Assembly (NCBI GenBank): GCA_000004985.1
Contig: GG738878.1
Length of the DNA stretch: 64,000 bases
Source of the DNA: Naegleria gruberi
Taxonomy: Eukaryota
Strand: one strand, 5' to 3'
Position 1 is the stretch's first letter. The number at the start of each line of letters is the position of its first letter. The notes under the pieces were generated by a model, which had not been told where the DNA came from, did not search any database, and saw nothing but the letters and a program-made list of their open reading frames with translations. Shown piece by piece: positions 22,360-30,441 of this stretch. A program made the position numbers and the translations under genes.

Positions 22360-25022
22360 TTATTTTTCAGTTAGTGCTAAAGCATAATCCTCACTACAAT
22401 TCTTTTCAGCCATACTCTTCAAGTATTGAGCTCTTCTCTTCAACTCGGCAATATATTTAATGGAGGAATAATCAATAGCGAGTTCTTCTGGTTTGTAAGT
22501 TTCTTTCCATTGTGCATTGAGTCTGTAAATTTCCTCAATTTCTTCAACGGCAGTGTCATACTTTTTATCAAAGAGAGCATCTCTTATTCTCAATAACCTA
22601 TCACTCACCACCTTCTGTGAGGATGTAATATCTTCAATTTCACCGTCGACAGTGTAAACTTCAGTTGGTTTGGATTTACCTTTTAGTCTGACTGAATCGA
22701 CATACATGCAAATAAACTTATTCTTCACAATCTCATAAGTATTGTTGCCGATAAGAATTGGTGTATCATATCTCTTGTTTAACATTTCTAATCTACCAGC
22801 AGTGTTAACAGTGTCACCAATAGCTGTGAAACTGAATCTATCCTTTGATCCAATATTTCCCATCATACAATTACCAGTATTGACACCAACTCTAATCTTG
22901 ACAATTGGAAGATTTTCCTTAATACATTTCGATTTCAATTGGTCAATCTTGTACAAACAAAGAACTGCAGCCCTTGTTCCCTTATAGGCATGGTCTTGTA
23001 CAACTCTTAATGGATTTGAAAACAGACTCATGGTACCATCCCCAATGAATTTATCAATAATACCATCATGTGCCTCAACTGTCTCAGTAATAATATTGAA
23101 ATACTCTGTCAGAATTTTAAGCAAAACAGACAAGCTTGAAGATTCTGAAAACGAAGTAAAATCTGCAATATCAGTAAACATAACAGTTGAATTCGCATTG
23201 GCCATTCCCAACTTGGAAGCATTACCTGTTCTTACAATATCCCTGACAATATCTTTTGGAATATATTTCATAAAACTGTGCAAACCATTCTTCACTGTCT
23301 TGATTGAGGTCTGTAATAGATCGAGTTCATACATGGTCTTAAGGACCTTGGATGGCTTCACTGTATCAACTTCAAGTTTAGAAATCTTGTACATATCTCT
23401 GGAAACTTTCCATATTGATCTTGTAATGAATTGAGTAACAACTATCATTAATAAGGTACCCAGAATAATAAGTATAATAGATACTGATAATAGAGCGGGT
23501 GAACTTGTGAAAATGGTCTTGACGAACCCATAGTCCTCTGTAACAATCACCACAATCCAATCAAGCCCATTATCGGTAATTTGGTGGATAGTAATCTTGC
23601 TGTTACCCACCATGAACATTGAAAAATCTGCATTTGGGTCTAAGCTTTCCTTAATTGTGCTCGTTGGGATAGTAGTAGCAGTTCCCCACATGGACTTTGG
23701 AAGATGGTACAGTATCTTTCGATCTTCCAGCACTGTACAAACCTCTGAGAATACTTCAGTTGTGTTCGAGATGTGATTTCTCACATTGGACGGGTCTTTT
23801 GTTTGCGCATTGAATGAAGAAGATATAATCAAGCCGTGTCTCTCAACAATCAAAACCTTAATAGATATTGTTTGCATATCCTTATTGGCCTCAATAACAT
23901 TAACAAGCGAACTATCAATATTGTACAAATCAAAGTGAGCACCAACAATTTGAGTAACATTTCTTGTCTCGACAGTTCCATTAGGATAGACATAATCCTG
24001 AGTATTAATAAAATCCAACGTTGTGGAAGCTCCCAGTGATGTAGCTCCAATGAATGCGTTGAAAAACACAGGTGACCACATGTAATCTGGATATGTCTTA
24101 GAAAGACCTGCCTTAAACCATGGTCTAATGGTTGGATCGTAGTTTTTGCTGGCCTGCTTTAACATGATTGGTTCATAAAAATCATCTCTCGAATAAATAC
24201 CAACAGTAGCATTATCATCTCTGATTTGAATGGTATCTCGCGTTACACTCTTTTCAATGGCACAATAATTCTTAATACTGTTGCCGTAGTAAAAGATTGA
24301 TGAACTAGGGAAGCTACTCTTGGAAGGTCCAAAGACAGATCTTATCCTCCTGCAAGTGTCATCATAACTATTGGTCAATTTGAAATTTAGTTTGTGGTCC
24401 TGGATCAATATGCCATTTCTCATCGTTTCCAGGATTGTTGGTGCTACATTGATAAAATCCTTGATTTTAGTCACGATATTCTTCTCTCTGATTGTTGTTA
24501 TATTATTAACGGATTGTTCTCCGCTTGAGTAGAACAATAATATTAAGGAACCTATGATGAATAATTATTAACATATATATTATTAAAAACTGTTAACTTA
24601 CCAATGCAAATAGCTGTTTGAAGGAGAAAGACAACGAGAAGAATATTTTGGAGAGTGTGTGGGGCTGGACAACATTCTTTGAAAAACCTTTTCATCTTGC
24701 CTTTCTTTCCCTCAGAGTACCCAAATAAATCATCAAATGTTGAACTTATCGTTGAAATTCCATCTGATTGAAGGCTTAGTGAGGCATGGGATGAAGAATT
24801 TTCTGTATTGGATTGGAAATAGTTTGTTGGTGGGTGTTCATTTGGTTCGCTTGCTGTTGTTGAGGTAATATAGGTATTCGATCTAGAGTTAAAATCACTT
24901 GAAAAGTCTAAACTCCCAGATGATGGATAAATCTTATTATCAAAATAATAAGATGCAGAATTAGATCTGTGTGATCTTGTTTTTGATATCTGCTGATGAA
25001 GAGGTGTTACTTGGGTAACCAT
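22360..25022 (-). CDS. Receptor-type class III adenylyl/guanylyl cyclase with an extracellular Cache-like sensor, two exons 25022..24602 and 24551..22360
   Basis: Exon 1 is a low-complexity cytoplasmic N-terminus followed by ..ILLVVFLLQTAICIG|GTAAGT. A 50-nt intron ends CATCATAG. Exon 2 begins SLILLFYSS.., so a TM helix spans the junction. The ectodomain of about 330 aa contains YDPTIRPWFKAGL, the R-P-W-[FY] signature of Cache domains. A second TM follows (LLSVSIILIILGTLLMIVVTQFI). Cyclase catalytic core: VMFTDIADFTSFSE...IDKFIGDGTMSLFS...IRVGVNTGNCMMGNIGSKDRFSFTAIGDTVNTAGRLE. Confidence 0.8.
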
Positions 25023-25859: not shown

Positions 25860-28610
25860 TTAATCATCAATGCAAATAATCTCTGGTGCATCCGTTTTTG
25901 ACTTTTTGTTTGGTGGTTCAATTGAAGATGAGGGAGCAACTTCTAGTTGAAGTGTCGAATTATTATCTGTTGACTCTTCAGGTGGGGTTCTTCTCTTTTT
26001 CAATAAAGATTCCAGTTTAGTTTTAGCTGCATTGTTAAGTTCGGTTGCCTGTTTCACAAGTCTCTCAGAGATCACAAGTTTTGTTAAAATAATTGATTTC
26101 TGAACTCTTTGTTTCTGTATTTCCCTAATTGGAGCAACCATCGATTCAATGTGTGAAAGTTCCTTAACTAGGCCAGTGATTGAACAAGTTCTCTCTGTTT
26201 CTGACCATAAAAATTGTTTTAGAATCTTACAGTCACTACAAATACATGAAATACTAGATTTCACAGAAAAATTTGGTAGGGGAATAATGAACTTCTTTGT
26301 TCTAATTCCATCATCAATTAAATCAATGCTCCAGTTCAGTAGGATATCTAACTGGTCAGATTTAGGCATAATATTCGAAACAACCTCAATGAGTGGAGCG
26401 ACTAGGGTGCTATAATTCTCTTCTGATGCAACACTAAGAACAACGCGGCATGCTCTAGTAATAAAATCATTCCATGAATGGTTATGGAGCATTCGAATGA
26501 AGGAAGTTGCGAATTTCAAATCAAGGAAACAATCTCGATGGTCATATAACATCCATTCTATCAATAATTCACTCAGAGGTTTACAACTCATTGTTGATAA
26601 CACCATATTCAAACAATTTTCACTTGTCAACCATTTAGAGAATGAAAAACGTAGATTTTTCAATTTTTCAACCCCAATTTGATTTGCAATTTTGATTATC
26701 AATGGAAGGTCCAGCTCTTTGTTTTCATAAGAACCTCTTCCTCTTTGATTTGGAATAGAGTTTTTAGCCAATTCTTTTACAATCAATTTCTCATAGATTG
26801 AGGTGTCCTTCAATAAGTCTATCAACTTTGTAATACTTTCCTTATAACTGGCATACTTATAATAATCTTCCACAATATTTTCTACTACTGTTGAATGCAT
26901 TGAATATGTACATTTTTGTGCAAGTATTATTAATTTTTCAAAGCAGCTGCTATCGTATAAATGGTCATACTTATTGACAGAATACTTTGGCATTGTCATT
27001 TGTATCAACGGCACGTCATTGATTTCAATTAGAGAGCCAATAAATTCCTTCATATATCGTTTTTTACATAAATTTTCGCTAATAGTTTCTCTAAACGGTT
27101 CAATTGTAAAATGAGAAATAAGAGAAGATAAACTTTTTTGGTCTATTCCGATAACCAGTTTTGCCAATTCGACATCATTGAGCTGAATAATAGATTGAAT
27201 TACAACTTTTTCTTCATCACCCCATAAGTAGATGTTTTTCTTGGCCAGCATCTGCTTTACAAATGCAATAGAATTCTCTCTAGAGTTTGACTCTATGAAT
27301 GAAGGTAATATTTTGCTACAAAATGAAAATCCAAACTTGAGGCAAATTCTTTGTTGGCACTTCTTTGGATAAATCATTAGACATGCATTTCTGTATTGCT
27401 TTTCTTTTGTTGACCCCTCATTTCCAGTATTTTCGTTAATGGACTTGTGGAATAGTTTCATGGAAGACAGAGCAGACTTGCAAACAACACTTCTGAAAGG
27501 AACGTCTATTTTACGTTGTTGGGATCCAAAAATATACTCGAGTGATACTTCTGGATCGTCAAAACCTTCCACCTTCCTCTCCATAATTCCTAAATCTAAA
27601 ACAAGGTCTTGATATTCCTCAGCATACCTTTCCAGAATATCGTAAATATTGTAATCAGAACCTTTAAGATTTTCAGGATCCAAACTCTTTTGAGAATATT
27701 GGTGCTGAAATACATACATTCTGTAGAGAGTGTCAACATCTTTTGCATCAGCATTCCACTCAGAAACTATTTGTTGAAGTCTTTTGGCTAATTCTTCATA
27801 ACCTTTAAGTGTTGGCTTACTTTCTTTGTTACCTGAAAAACAAAGGTTATATATCAAACAAACTCTGTAACCAGAATTTACATTCTTAATCATGTGCTCA
27901 CAATCTGCATAAAAAGAAATAAAGTGAGGAGTATATCTAGAAACAGATGCAAAATCATATTCTTCCTCTTCCTCTCCGTGTCTAACTATTATTTCACCTC
28001 CACTATATTCCGAAGGAAGTTGAACAACTAGTGTTCCAAACATTCGTTCTTCCTTTTCCGAATCTTTGTGAAATTGAAAGTGACCTCCCTCTTCATATAC
28101 TAATAGCTTGTATAAATTAGCTGAGAGTCTGAGATGTTTACTAATTCCCAAGCCATCCCTAATTTCATTATCCACTAAACCGTCAATCAAATCATCCCAA
28201 GTTGGATTTGTAATTTCAAATCTTGATGGATCTAATTGCCATGTTTTTCTAACATTTTCATCGTAAATTGTATCCTCTCCTCTTCCATATGGTGCCTTAC
28301 TGCAAAATTGAATTAGCTCTGAAGCACTCCCATTCGACAATGGAAATCCAATTGTTTTAAATTGTTCATTATCCAACTTGAGTTGCAAACCTGGTAAACC
28401 AAAATCGCTGTCCAATGCACCACACTGCGTAAATTTACTTCCTCCCTTGTTTTGAGCATCCAAAATAAATTCTTGTAAATTGTCTGATGTTTTAATGGTA
28501 TCAGCATGAAGTTGAACACAATCATCATAAAAATCGGAACCGTAAGCTTCACAATAGTCACTGTCTGTTTCCGATGATTCTGATGAGGAAGAAACTCTCC
28601 TTCTGGTCAT
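25860..28610 (-). CDS. 2-oxoglutarate/Fe(II)-dependent dioxygenase domain protein (P4H/PKHD-like DSBH core) with an unrelated C-terminal region of about 650 aa
   Basis: Residues about 150-270: LYKLLVYEEGGHFQFHKD (Y..GG...HxD), then ERMFGTLVVQL...GGEIIV, then ..CEHMIKNVNSGYRVCLIYN (second His, then Arg at +10). This is the canonical HxD...H...R facial triad and 2OG-binding pattern. The C-terminal 650 aa are helical and unassigned. Real ATG at 28610. Confidence 0.6.
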   Translation of the reverse strand: MTRRRVSSSSESSETDSDYCEAYGSDFYDDCVQLHADTIKTSDNLQEFILDAQNKGGSKFTQCGALDSDFGLPGLQLKLDNEQFKTIGFPLSNGSASELIQFCSKAPYGRGEDTIYDENVRKTWQLDPSRFEITNPTWDDLIDGLVDNEIRDGLGISKHLRLSANLYKLLVYEEGGHFQFHKDSEKEERMFGTLVVQLPSEYSGGEIIVRHGEEEEEYDFASVSRYTPHFISFYADCEHMIKNVNSGYRVCLIYNLCFSGNKESKPTLKGYEELAKRLQQIVSEWNADAKDVDTLYRMYVFQHQYSQKSLDPENLKGSDYNIYDILERYAEEYQDLVLDLGIMERKVEGFDDPEVSLEYIFGSQQRKIDVPFRSVVCKSALSSMKLFHKSINENTGNEGSTKEKQYRNACLMIYPKKCQQRICLKFGFSFCSKILPSFIESNSRENSIAFVKQMLAKKNIYLWGDEEKVVIQSIIQLNDVELAKLVIGIDQKSLSSLISHFTIEPFRETISENLCKKRYMKEFIGSLIEINDVPLIQMTMPKYSVNKYDHLYDSSCFEKLIILAQKCTYSMHSTVVENIVEDYYKYASYKESITKLIDLLKDTSIYEKLIVKELAKNSIPNQRGRGSYENKELDLPLIIKIANQIGVEKLKNLRFSFSKWLTSENCLNMVLSTMSCKPLSELLIEWMLYDHRDCFLDLKFATSFIRMLHNHSWNDFITRACRVVLSVASEENYSTLVAPLIEVVSNIMPKSDQLDILLNWSIDLIDDGIRTKKFIIPLPNFSVKSSISCICSDCKILKQFLWSETERTCSITGLVKELSHIESMVAPIREIQKQRVQKSIILTKLVISERLVKQATELNNAAKTKLESLLKKRRTPPEESTDNNSTLQLEVAPSSSIEPPNKKSKTDAPEIICIDD

Positions 28611-28657
28611 TTGTGAAATTTTTTAGTTTCAAATTAATAAAAAATTGGCGGTAATAT

Positions 28658-29767
28658 TCACAACACGTTTAAATGTAGTTCTACCTTTGCTGTGATATAA
28701 TCCCAATAATCAATCTCCAAATGATTGAGACCCTCTATTTCGACTTTGTAATTTAAATCTTTTTGTAAATTAATTTGAGTTTTTACAGTGTCATCCAATT
28801 CAAGTTGGGTGTTGTTTAGAGAGTTTATCTTTTTCAAATCCAATTCTTCCAGAGGCATCCAACAATCCTTCCACTTTGAAATCAATTGAGGAGCATTGTC
28901 AAAATCATTCAAATGAACTCCAATCCATGACATTCTGGAACAAGTTTGAAGCACCCAATAATGCCAATCTTCGGTGGAGTCTACACAACTATGGATGGTC
29001 AGATTCTCCTTCTCATTTTCAAATGATAACGAACCATTCATGTAAACATTGGCAATTTCAGCTCCATAAGGATCACCATCTGTGAGTGTGAAAATATTCA
29101 AACTTCTCCTTTGATATTTTGCTACTTGCTTTGTTAGTGTTACAATAAAATCTCTTGTTGGAACATCAGGATATCCCTTAGATGTGATTATTAATGATGT
29201 ATCTTTGAGACTGCTTGCTTGACTTTTCAACACTTGAAAAACTGACTCTTTTTCAACAATGATCACCTTATCTACTTCAACAGGGATAGAGAACTCTACA
29301 ATTTGTAAATGAGGAATCGAAGGAAGATTACACCCTTTAGAAGCACTGACTATAGTTGTTGTTGGTTGTTGTCCTCTATTTTCAATATCAATCAATGAGA
29401 TTTCCTTCCAAGCAATTGGTCCACAAACTTCTCCCTTCGATTGAGGAACAATATGAAGATCATGCCTATTAACTCGCCAACTTGATGATAAATCCTTCAA
29501 TATGGAATCTAGTTGTGTCTGATCTTTTAGAATAGGCTTGTTACAATAATACAAATCTCTCTTGGTTGAAAATTTGTTTAAAGTACACAACTGATACACT
29601 AAATTCATCACCTGAAACTTGGAAATAAATGTTGATGGATATTTGGTCAGATCTTTCAGCAAGAAGCCTTTTTCATTCGGAATATCAGATGATGGTGATG
29701 AAACTAATTCCCTCACAAAGGCTAAAACTTTCTCCTCAATTCTTTCTCTCACTTGAATTGTTTCCAT
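28658..29767 (-). CDS. SPO11: SPO11 / topoisomerase VI subunit A homologue (meiotic double-strand-break transesterase)
   Basis: Winged-helix 5Y-CAP region with catalytic Tyr in FSTKRDLYYCNKP. Toprim domain with the conserved Glu in VIIVEKESVFQVL. ..LIITSKGYPDVPTRDFI.. and the DxD metal motif in IFTLTDGDPYGAEIANVY. All are in the order and spacing expected for Spo11/Top6A. 369 aa. Confidence 0.85.
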   Translation of the reverse strand: METIQVRERIEEKVLAFVRELVSSPSSDIPNEKGFLLKDLTKYPSTFISKFQVMNLVYQLCTLNKFSTKRDLYYCNKPILKDQTQLDSILKDLSSSWRVNRHDLHIVPQSKGEVCGPIAWKEISLIDIENRGQQPTTTIVSASKGCNLPSIPHLQIVEFSIPVEVDKVIIVEKESVFQVLKSQASSLKDTSLIITSKGYPDVPTRDFIVTLTKQVAKYQRRSLNIFTLTDGDPYGAEIANVYMNGSLSFENEKENLTIHSCVDSTEDWHYWVLQTCSRMSWIGVHLNDFDNAPQLISKWKDCWMPLEELDLKKINSLNNTQLELDDTVKTQINLQKDLNYKVEIEGLNHLEIDYWDYITAKVELHLNVL

Positions 29768-29820: not shown

Positions 29821-30441
29821 TTATTGGGTTGGTTTTGACTTAGCAGCAAGAAGTTTTACTCTTCTGTTATATTCTTCACGATTAGTGACATAGAGATGGA
29901 AAGGTTCAGCTTGAGCAGGATCCTTTTCGTTAGGATTATCCAACAATTCTTGAATACCTAAAAGTAATTGTTTGACAGTGAGAGAAGGCTTCCAATCCTT
30001 ATCTTCATTCAAAATACTCAAACAAACAGTACCACTTGGGAAAATGTTTGGATGGAAAAGTGGTGGTACAAATTTACACTTTGGAGGCTTGTCTGGATAT
30101 TCATCAGGGAATTCAATATCTAATCTATATTCACCTCCTTCCCATATTGTACCTGGTTTACCTGGGATACCACAATTCCATACCATTACATTAGTTGTTC
30201 CGTCTTCTTGTTGTTGAGGTCTGGCCCAGAAACCCTGTTATTGTTGTTGTTGTTAATTTTCATCACACAATTTTGTCAATTATTGTCATCATTAAAATCA
30301 ATTTAATTATTTGGTGATCGGAAGAAAATATTCTTTATATATCGATATTAAATTACACCTCAAAACAATACATACATAAGGGTGGTCCTTTCTCCAGTTC
30401 TTTCTCTCTTCCATAACTCTCTTTCTAGCGATGGAGGACAT
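29821..30441 (-). CDS. UBC9: UBC9 SUMO-conjugating E2 enzyme, two exons 30441..30376 and 30234..29821
   Basis: Exon 1 [22 protein letters not shown]|GTATGT. A 141-nt intron follows. Exon 2 [112 protein letters not shown].. is collinear with UBC9 (RKAWRKDHPFGF...[47 protein letters not shown]). Confidence 0.9.

What the first reader, a model, noticed from the sequence alone, without database searches (positions are those of the whole stretch)
25860..28610. 2OG/Fe(II) dioxygenase core fused to a 650-aa unassigned C-terminal domain
Residues about 150-270 carry the complete P4H/AlkB-type DSBH signature (Y..GG..F.FHKD, GGEIIV, H..N..SG.R..L.Y). The following 650 residues are helical with no recognisable domain. 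Small-molecule and protein hydroxylases of this class are usually 200-400 aa. A long C-terminal module suggests a substrate-targeting or scaffolding function, for example a chromatin- or ribosome-associated hydroxylase or a nucleic-acid oxidase. The heterolobosean lineage is known to encode TET/JBP-type nucleic-acid dioxygenases, so the substrate class deserves a test.
Basis: partly seen in the sequence, partly recalled or inferred. Interest (0 to 1): 0.5.

Follow-up and report, generated by a model that had tools for sequence, protein, structure and literature searches.

The report
Long PHD-type dioxygenase, mis-annotated Spo11 fusion
This Naegleria gruberi gene encodes an intact 916-residue iron/2-oxoglutarate dioxygenase from a very large, uncharacterised and mostly bacterial family whose extra domains probably dock the enzyme onto a protein or nucleic-acid target, and the public annotation wrongly fuses it to the neighbouring meiotic Spo11 gene.

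Summary
Window 25860..28610 (-) is one uninterrupted 916-codon ORF with a complete Fe(II)/2OG facial triad (H181, D183, H239) and the 2OG-binding R249.

The 650-residue remainder is neither a mis-joined gene nor all helical. It comprises:
- a conserved acidic alpha/beta domain with invariant H303, Y305, K316, D319 and TGNEG...Y406;
- a HEAT-like solenoid;
- a basic beta-alpha-beta-beta-alpha module whose best fold matches are R3H domains. That match is fold-level only.

The same architecture recurs in at least 570 bacterial species and about 3,300 clusters at 50% identity. These genes always stand alone, with no conserved neighbours. Among eukaryotes I found it only in heteroloboseans: N. gruberi, two Willaertia paralogues and one environmental contig. 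These form a single clade, and two of the four genes contain introns.

The real mis-join is upstream. The deposited model XP_002675419.1 (1251 aa) splices Spo11 onto this ORF through a non-consensus intron that deletes conserved Spo11 residues.

Function is untested. I favour a macromolecule-directed hydroxylase. Interest is moderate.

The parts
25860..28610 (-). Complete intron-less CDS of 916 aa plus stop, encoding a multi-domain PHD/P4H-type Fe(II)/2OG dioxygenase
   Evidence: ORF listing. It is 100% identical to residues 346-1251 of deposited P0001. 790 homologues were found.
28491..28610 (-). N-terminal Ser/Asp/Glu-rich tail (aa 1-40), predicted disordered or low confidence. It is a eukaryote-specific addition.
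   Evidence: pLDDT is 34-71. Alignment occupancy is 0.18 for aa 1-30. Comparable acidic extensions occur in Willaertia P0002 and the environmental homologue L090.
27816..28439 (-). Catalytic region (aa 58-265): a conserved N-terminal extension with the APYGRGE..T..D..VR..WQ motif, followed by the double-stranded beta-helix
28062..28070 (-). H181-K-D183, the HxD part of the iron-binding facial triad
   Evidence: Invariant in 105 of 105 sequences.
27864..27896 (-). Distal iron ligand H239 through R249 (GYR motif), the predicted 2OG C5-carboxylate binder
   Evidence: Both residues are invariant in 105 of 105 sequences.
27366..27743 (-). Second conserved alpha/beta domain (aa 290-415) with invariant H303, Y305, K316 and D319. 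It is acidic and matches no known family.
   Evidence: Model strands and helix at 297-415 have high pLDDT. Invariant residues are listed. Pfam and PDB profile searches found nothing. Median net charge in the family is -20.
27414..27428 (-). T395-G-N-E-G399, the family signature motif (EATGNEG...Y406)
   Evidence: G396, N397, G399 and Y406 are invariant in 105 of 105 sequences.
26298..27365 (-). All-helical repeat region (aa 416-771), a HEAT/ARM-like solenoid. It is poorly conserved and carries lineage-specific insertions.
25989..26297 (-). C-terminal module (aa 772-874): a CxCxxC segment and helix, then a beta-alpha-beta-beta-alpha unit and a long helix. It is basic and R3H-like by fold only.
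25863..25988 (-). Disordered C-terminal tail (aa 875-916) with KKRR and NKKSK basic clusters
   Evidence: pLDDT is below 50 from residue 883. Basic tails are common in the family: 48 of 105 have net charge of +3 or more.
28611..28657 (-). 47-bp spacer between the Spo11 stop codon (TGA 28658-28660) and this gene's ATG
   Evidence: Sequence read. A similar 53-bp spacer separates the UBC9-like gene from Spo11.
28580..28731 (-). The 152-nt 'intron' of deposited model XP_002675419.1 that fuses Spo11 to this ORF. I judge it an annotation artefact.
   Evidence: The junction EIE|ESSETD was deduced from P0001 and the DNA. The donor is GTCTCA, whereas real introns use GTATGT or GTAAGT. The intron removes the Spo11 tail GLNHLEIDYWDYITAK, which contains residues invariant in 6 Spo11 orthologues.

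Best explanation
The gene encodes a self-contained Fe(II)/2-oxoglutarate dioxygenase of the PHD/P4H clade. It belongs to a very large, uncharacterised and mainly bacterial family with a fixed four-part architecture: (1) a catalytic DSBH with a highly conserved N-terminal extension; (2) an acidic alpha/beta domain with its own invariant residues; (3) a HEAT-like alpha-solenoid; (4) a basic beta-alpha-beta-beta-alpha module resembling R3H domains, usually followed by a basic tail. I propose that the catalytic domain hydroxylates a universally conserved macromolecular target. My preferred candidate is a protein that sits in a nucleic-acid-containing complex, such as the translation apparatus, which is where the characterised relatives PPHD and OGFOD1/Tpa1 act. 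The solenoid and the basic module would provide docking. An ancestor of Naegleria and Willaertia acquired the gene from bacteria. It is a separate gene from Spo11. SHOWN: the ORF, the catalytic residues, the fold class, conservation of the architecture, the absence of operon partners, the single eukaryotic clade with introns, and the Spo11 mis-join. INFERRED: enzymatic activity, substrate class, and the docking role of the accessory domains.
Confidence: 0.45

Rival explanations
1. Direct nucleic-acid oxygenase. The P4H-type core oxidises or dealkylates a base or sugar in RNA or single-stranded DNA, and the R3H-like module holds the strand. This would be functionally analogous to AlkB or TET but would have evolved from a different clade.
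For: The C-terminal module is R3H/Smr/Alba-like by fold and basic, with a basic tail. The N-terminal extension preceding the DSBH is very highly conserved and rich in R and W (R121, W124 and W138 are invariant), so it could act as a nucleotide lid. The substrate must be universal.
Confidence: 0.15
2. Small-molecule or free amino-acid oxygenase, like HilA or the PiuC-type enzymes, whose long C-terminal region serves oligomerisation or regulation rather than substrate targeting.
Against: There is no biosynthetic or transport gene context in 80 loci. The match to the YbiX/PiuC NCBIfam model is 15 bits against a cut-off of 143. About 650 residues of conserved accessory domains, including a basic nucleic-acid-binding-type fold, are hard to explain for a metabolite enzyme.
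Confidence: 0.15
3. In N. gruberi the protein is a decaying or neofunctionalised relic. The catalytic half is retained, but the targeting module has lost its ancestral function after horizontal transfer.
For: N. gruberi is the single outlier at eight positions conserved in at least 90% of the family in the C-terminal module: P778L, W781F, P804E, R818L, T831I, G835R, P837Q and L840I. It also has a 5-residue deletion in the hairpin. No orthologue was detected in N. fowleri or N. lovaniensis, although both proteomes are in the database.
Against: The 916-codon frame is intact in an AT-rich genome. All invariant residues of the catalytic domain and domain 2 are retained. The module is still predicted to fold confidently and remains basic.
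Confidence: 0.1
4. The deposited gene model is right: a single Spo11-dioxygenase fusion protein of 1251 aa that links meiotic DNA breakage to an oxygenase.
For: A GT...AG pair exists in frame at 28731/28580, the two ORFs are co-oriented, and they lie only 47 bp apart.
Against: The proposed intron removes the Spo11 C-terminal tail, which includes L347, Y354 and K361. These are invariant in Spo11 of N. fowleri, N. lovaniensis, Willaertia and two environmental relatives. Four of those five orthologues end within a few residues of the window ORF's own stop, and none carries a dioxygenase. The donor GTCTCA is unlike real introns, which use GTATGT or GTAAGT. In Willaertia the dioxygenase and Spo11 lie on different contigs. 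Short 47-53 bp spacers are normal at this locus.
Confidence: 0.02

Closest known systems
Bacterial and protist PHD-type prolyl hydroxylases (Pseudomonas PPHD acting on EF-Tu, Dictyostelium PhyA, human PHD2)
   Different: These enzymes are single-domain proteins of about 200-250 aa in the catalytic part. They lack domain 2, the solenoid and the basic C-terminal module. Sequence identity is only 10-17%. Their substrates are known, whereas this one is not.
OGFOD1 / Tpa1 / Sudestada1 (ribosomal protein uS12 prolyl hydroxylases)
   Different: Their second domain is a degenerate DSBH (Pfam Ofd1_CTDD). No such Pfam match occurs here. They have no solenoid and no R3H-like module.
PiuC / YbiX PKHD-type hydroxylases (the label JGI gives several family members)
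   Different: The NCBIfam equivalog NF003974 scores 12-22 bits against a cut-off of 143, so this is not a member. PiuC is about 225 aa and has no accessory domains.
Collagen prolyl 4-hydroxylase alpha subunit
   Different: The helical domain is N-terminal and unrelated in sequence. The enzyme is an ER-resident tetramer with PDI. It has no R3H-like module.
R3H domains (SMUBP-2/IGHMBP2, PARN, KhpB/Jag, SPAG7, FAP1)
   Different: No Pfam R3H match and an hhalign probability of 2.5%. The module has an extra N-terminal CxCxxC segment and helix, and a long C-terminal helix. N. gruberi lacks the Arg (L818) and the second His (E822).
AlkB and TET/JBP nucleic-acid dioxygenases (including Naegleria NgTet1)
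   Same: The same Fe(II)/2OG superfamily and chemistry.

Membership tests
Fe(II)/2-oxoglutarate dioxygenase superfamily | HxD/E...H iron-binding facial triad | tested here: met
   H181, D183 and H239 are present and invariant in 105 of 105 aligned members.
Fe(II)/2-oxoglutarate dioxygenase superfamily | Basic residue binding the 2OG C5 carboxylate, downstream of the distal His | tested here: met
   R249 in the SGYR motif, 10 residues after H239, is invariant.
Fe(II)/2-oxoglutarate dioxygenase superfamily | Double-stranded beta-helix fold | tested here: met
Fe(II)/2-oxoglutarate dioxygenase superfamily | 2OG-dependent oxidative turnover | not testable with these tools
   Requires an enzyme assay.
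PHD/P4H clade (Pfam PF13640, 2OG-FeII_Oxy_3) | Profile match at or above the gathering score | tested here: inconclusive
   N. gruberi scores 24.1 bits against GA 27, with E=7e-5. Orthologous family members pass, at 27.7-34.9 bits. It is the only Pfam family hit.
PHD/P4H clade (Pfam PF13640, 2OG-FeII_Oxy_3) | Nearest solved structures are PHD/P4H-type enzymes | tested here: met
PHD/P4H clade (Pfam PF13640, 2OG-FeII_Oxy_3) | Hydroxylates a peptidyl proline or other protein residue | not testable with these tools
   No substrate data exist. This is inferred only.
TET/JBP 5-methylpyrimidine dioxygenases | Tet_JBP profile match or TET-like fold with the Cys-rich insert | tested here: not met
AlkB family | 2OG-FeII_Oxy_2 profile match, or AlkB as nearest structure | tested here: not met
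OGFOD1/Tpa1 family | C-terminal degenerate DSBH (Ofd1_CTDD) after the catalytic domain | tested here: not met
   No Pfam match for whole proteins or for domain 2 alone at E<=10. The structural similarity is confined essentially to the catalytic domain.
PiuC/YbiX PKHD-type hydroxylase (NCBIfam NF003974) | Equivalog model score of at least 143 bits | tested here: not met
   Scores are 12-22 bits for the query and five homologues.
R3H domain (C-terminal module) | Beta-alpha-beta-beta-alpha fold superposable on R3H structures | tested here: met
R3H domain (C-terminal module) | R-x-x-x-H motif at the beta1-alpha1 junction | tested here: not met
   The family consensus is R818-Q-H820-L-H822, with R in 95 of 105 and H822 in 69 of 105. 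N. gruberi has L818 and E822, and only H820 is kept.
R3H domain (C-terminal module) | Sequence-profile match to R3H (Pfam PF01424 or HMM-HMM) | tested here: not met
   No R3H hit in 27 members at E<=10. The hhalign probability against verified SMUBP-2 and R3HDM1 R3H sequences is 2.5%. That R3H profile had only two sequences, so the test is weak.
Spo11-dioxygenase fusion (deposited model XP_002675419.1) | Fusion architecture conserved in orthologues | tested here: not met
   Five Spo11 orthologues are 376-446 aa with no dioxygenase. Four of them end within a few residues of the window ORF's stop. The Willaertia dioxygenases are not fused and lie on other contigs.
Spo11-dioxygenase fusion (deposited model XP_002675419.1) | Consensus splice signals, with the intron not disrupting conserved sequence | tested here: not met
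   The donor is GTCTCA, versus GTATGT or GTAAGT in verified introns. The intron deletes Spo11 residues L347, Y354 and K361, which are invariant.

The most novel reading that the evidence does not exclude
The family may be a previously unrecognised class of nucleic-acid- or ribonucleoprotein-directed oxygenases built on a P4H/PHD core rather than an AlkB or TET core. The R3H-like basic module would recruit the enzyme to RNA or ssDNA, and the invariant H-x-Y...K..D...TGNEG...Y domain would form part of a new substrate pocket. It would be widespread in environmental bacteria and captured once by heterolobosean amoebae.
Probability: 0.15. Interest if true: 0.75.

Novelty: new variant of a known kind. 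Interest (0 to 1): 0.42.

Why it matters
There are three reasons.

1. This is a very large protein family: about 3,300 clusters at 50% identity and at least 570 bacterial species across at least 9 phyla. Databases describe it only as '2OG-Fe(II) oxygenase' or mislabel it as 'YbiX'. About 70% of each protein consists of conserved domains that no family library recognises. Its fixed architecture and stand-alone genomic habit point to a macromolecular substrate shared by bacteria and eukaryotes. Characterised PHD-clade enzymes of that type regulate translation or oxygen sensing, so identifying this substrate could reveal a new oxygen- or metabolite-dependent regulatory modification.

2. It is a clean example of bacterial-to-heterolobosean gene transfer followed by intron gain and lineage-specific loss.

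3. On the practical side, the RefSeq and UniProt entry for N. gruberi 'Spo11' (XP_002675419.1, D2VKE9, 1251 aa) is a chimera. This can mislead inventories of meiotic genes and domain-architecture surveys, and it should be split into a 369-aa Spo11 and a 916-aa dioxygenase.

Tried and rejected
- Sequence searches of the full protein and the family profile against PDB chains found nothing significant.
- NCBIfam and PADLOC gave only generic 2OG-domain hits far below cut-offs, so I rejected both YbiX/PiuC membership and a defined defence-system role.
- Pfam scans of the isolated C-terminal module and of domain 2 at E<=10 gave only scattered single-member noise. PDB profile searches with both modules found nothing useful.
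- I tried to build an R3H profile from PDB. Only SMUBP-2 and R3HDM1 could be harvested, and hhalign against them was non-significant.
- The afdb50 fold library was unavailable, so no annotated AlphaFold relatives could be retrieved.
- I looked for operon partners in seven individual neighbourhoods and in 80 GTDB loci by clustering flanking ORFs. Nothing was conserved.
- An 82-aa + HNH cassette seen near two members is homologous between them, but it lies on opposite sides of the gene. I rejected it as a partner.
- Some neighbourhoods contain toxin-antitoxin or integrase genes, but not consistently enough to call the family a defence gene.
- A Chlamydiae donor for the transfer is suggested only weakly by a neighbour-joining tree, so I do not claim it.
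- Literature searches found no paper on this family, architecture or accession.
- The first tree script timed out, and one literature query was rejected for syntax.
Full report
OBSERVATION. Window 25860..28610 (minus strand) is a single uninterrupted ORF of 916 codons. The sequence around it is about 33% GC. By my estimate, an open frame of that length there has a chance probability of about 1e-31. Pfam reports only PF13640 (2OG-FeII_Oxy_3) over aa 168-254, with E=7e-5 and 24.1 bits against a gathering score of 27. No AlkB, TET/JBP or JmjC model appears even at E<=1.

ORGANISM AND GENE MODEL. The ORF is 100% identical to residues 346-1251 of a deposited Naegleria gruberi protein, XP_002675419.1 / EFC42675.1 / D2VKE9. 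That entry is 1251 aa and is named 'type IIB DNA topoisomerase'. The model joins the upstream Spo11 ORF (28658..29767, minus strand) to this ORF by a 152-nt intron at 28580..28731. The intron skips both the Spo11 stop codon and this ORF's ATG.

I judge the join to be an artefact, for four reasons:
- Spo11 orthologues from N. lovaniensis, N. fowleri, Willaertia magna and two environmental relatives are 376-446 aa and carry no dioxygenase. All of them carry the tail KVEIEALxxxxxYWDYIxAK, and four of the five end within a few residues of the window ORF's stop. The proposed intron deletes that tail, including the invariant residues L347, Y354 and K361.
- The donor is GTCTCA. A verifiable N. gruberi intron in the adjacent UBC9-like gene uses GTATGT...ACAG (30235..30375). 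Introns in the Willaertia and environmental homologues use GTAAGT.
- The Willaertia dioxygenase genes are not fused to Spo11 and lie on different contigs from it.
- Spacers of 47-53 bp between co-oriented genes are normal at this locus.

It is not within the 916-aa ORF.

THE FAMILY. A search of 5.8 billion proteins returned 790 relatives. Apart from N. gruberi and two Willaertia paralogues (935 and 789 aa), the named hits are bacterial proteins of about 720-860 aa that carry only PF13640. Similarity is strongest over query residues 55-330, at about 40% identity. It continues to about residue 500 and reappears at 714-870.

A 105-sequence alignment shows the catalytic residues H181, D183, H239 and R249 are invariant. 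It also shows further invariant residues far outside the DSBH: H303, Y305, K316, D319, G396, N397, G399 and Y406 (the EATGNEG...Y motif). A well-conserved C-terminal block follows, PPxDWxR...CxCxDC..L..FLxDP....F....RRQHLH..I.....D.TH.T.RKGSPQTLVCTKT.

A profile of that C-terminal block found 3,274 representative clusters at 50% identity with E<=1e-3, and 2,037 with E<=1e-10. The block is always at the protein's C-terminal end. The short hits I sampled are truncated fragments or internal-deletion variants of the same family.

They span Planctomycetota, Verrucomicrobiota, Chlamydiales, Alpha-, Beta- and Gammaproteobacteria, Acidobacteriota, Chloroflexota, Bacteroidota, Cyanobacteria and Bacillota. 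Family ORFs there are mostly 725-950 aa.

STRUCTURE. An AlphaFold2 model built with the family alignment has mean pLDDT 78. It resolves these parts:
- a long N-terminal helix at 25-55;
- the N-terminal extension plus DSBH at 60-260, with high confidence;
- a second alpha/beta domain at 297-415, with high confidence;
- about 20 helices at 416-771, with mixed confidence;
- a compact helix-strand-helix-strand-strand-helix module at 792-874, with high confidence;
- a disordered tail.

The R3H link is fold-level only. There is no Pfam R3H match at E<=10. The hhalign probability against verified R3H sequences is 2.5%. Domain 2 matches nothing in Pfam or PDB sequences.

PHYSICAL AND CONTEXTUAL CLUES. 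The C-terminal module is the only consistently basic region: 94% of members are net positive, median pI is 9.1, and N. gruberi is +8 with pI 9.7. It is usually followed by a basic tail. Domain 2 is strongly acidic, with a median net charge of -20. This comes largely from a low-complexity insert that heteroloboseans lack.

The gene stands alone. Seven individually inspected neighbourhoods share nothing across phyla. When flanking ORFs of 80 loci were clustered, no neighbour family occurred in more than 6 loci. Some loci contain toxin-antitoxin, HNH or integrase genes, but not consistently.

EUKARYOTIC HISTORY. In neighbour-joining trees of the conserved N-terminal half, N. gruberi and the two Willaertia proteins form one clade in 40 of 40 bootstraps. 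An environmental protein, P0004, joins that clade. Its contig L090 is 33% GC. The clade sits among bacterial sequences. The Willaertia gene and L090 each contain a canonical GTAAGT intron, at different positions. N. gruberi has none. No N. fowleri or N. lovaniensis orthologue was among the hits, although both proteomes are in the database. The simplest reading is one ancient transfer from bacteria into a Naegleria-Willaertia ancestor, followed by loss in some lineages.

N. gruberi keeps every invariant residue of the catalytic domain and domain 2. It is, however, the outlier at eight near-invariant positions of the C-terminal module, including R818L and loss of the GSP hairpin motif. Its hairpin also has a 5-residue deletion.

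INTERPRETATION. The following points are shown:
- the gene is intact and separate from Spo11;
- the active site looks competent and is of the PHD/P4H type;
- the four-part architecture is conserved across a very large family;
- there are no operon partners;
- the C-terminal module is basic and R3H-like by fold only.

The following is inferred. Because all catalytic and domain-2 invariants survived transfer from bacteria to amoebae, and because no partner genes travel with the gene, the substrate is probably a universal macromolecule. Characterised PHD-clade relatives with macromolecular substrates act on the translation apparatus: PPHD on EF-Tu and OGFOD1/Tpa1 on uS12 (background knowledge). 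I therefore favour a protein hydroxylase that is docked to a nucleic-acid-containing complex through the solenoid and the basic module. My confidence in this is about 0.45.

The rivals, with my confidence in each, are:
- direct oxidation of RNA or ssDNA, 0.15;
- a small-molecule substrate, 0.15;
- a functionally decaying copy in N. gruberi, 0.1;
- a genuine Spo11 fusion, 0.02.

COMPARISON AND NOVELTY. The protein is a member of the Fe(II)/2OG superfamily and, at family level, of the PF13640 clade. It is not a member of the TET/JBP, AlkB, OGFOD1/Tpa1 or PiuC/YbiX families, because defining features were tested and not met. Its accessory domains match no library family. The sequences are already in public databases under generic or wrong names, and I found no publication on them. 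I rate it a new variant of a known kind and of moderate interest. A concrete annotation correction comes out of the work as a by-product.

Noticed in passing
window 28580-29767 (-): The public N. gruberi 'Spo11' entry (XP_002675419.1 / D2VKE9, 1251 aa) is a chimera of a 369-aa Spo11 and the 916-aa dioxygenase. The true Spo11 ORF ends at TGA 28658-28660 and keeps the conserved tail KVEIEGLNHLEIDYWDYITAK.
   Followed up: yes
window 29821-30441 (-): A UBC9-like SUMO E2 gene has a 141-nt intron at 30235..30375 (GTATGT...ACAG). Exon 1 encodes [22 protein letters not shown]. Three co-oriented genes (E2, Spo11, dioxygenase) are separated by only 53 and 47 bp.
   Followed up: partly
window 22360-25022 (-): Two ORFs lie 14 nt apart. 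One is 156 aa with no domain. The other is 725 aa with an adenylate/guanylate cyclase domain and a weak PDC-sensor hit. They probably form one gene interrupted by a short intron.
   Followed up: no
L090 (ENA ERZ929261 / ERR1078381 metagenome contig, 4157 bp, 33% GC): An environmental eukaryotic homologue groups with the heterolobosean clade. It has a 190-aa acidic N-terminal extension and a 44-nt GTAAGT...CTAG intron just before the TGN(E/A)G motif. The gene caller split it into two genes.
   Followed up: partly
L092:7309-7372 (Willaertia magna JBEGDK010000051.1): The Willaertia orthologue has a 64-nt GTAAGT...ATATAG intron after TGNEGATASR, about 12 codons from the L090 intron position. This suggests independent intron gains after transfer. 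N. gruberi has no intron.
   Followed up: partly
L004:6101-6768 and L009:8394-9067: An 82-aa ORF plus HNH nuclease cassette (HNH 33% identical between loci) lies next to the family gene in two unrelated bacterial genomes, on opposite sides. It is probably a mobile cassette marking variable regions. Other neighbourhoods hold RES-Xre, HicB, Phd/YefM, NTP_transf_2-HEPN and integrase genes.
   Followed up: partly
Alignment A5 (domain 2), bacterial members: Bacterial members carry an Arg/Tyr-rich then Asp/Glu-rich low-complexity insert inside domain 2. The heterolobosean proteins lack it. It makes the domain very acidic (median net charge -20) next to a basic C-terminal module, so an intramolecular, autoinhibitory contact is conceivable.
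   Followed up: no
P0121 (ENA metagenome, 2815-bp contig): An environmental Spo11 is 69% identical to the N. gruberi protein, which indicates a close uncultured Naegleria relative. Its gene call runs past the conserved Spo11 end.
   Followed up: no
window 26226-26246 (-), aa 789-794: A CxCxxC cluster (C789, C791, C794) precedes the R3H-like unit and is present in about 85% of the family. A subgroup lacks it entirely, so any zinc site there is not essential to the fold.
   Followed up: partly
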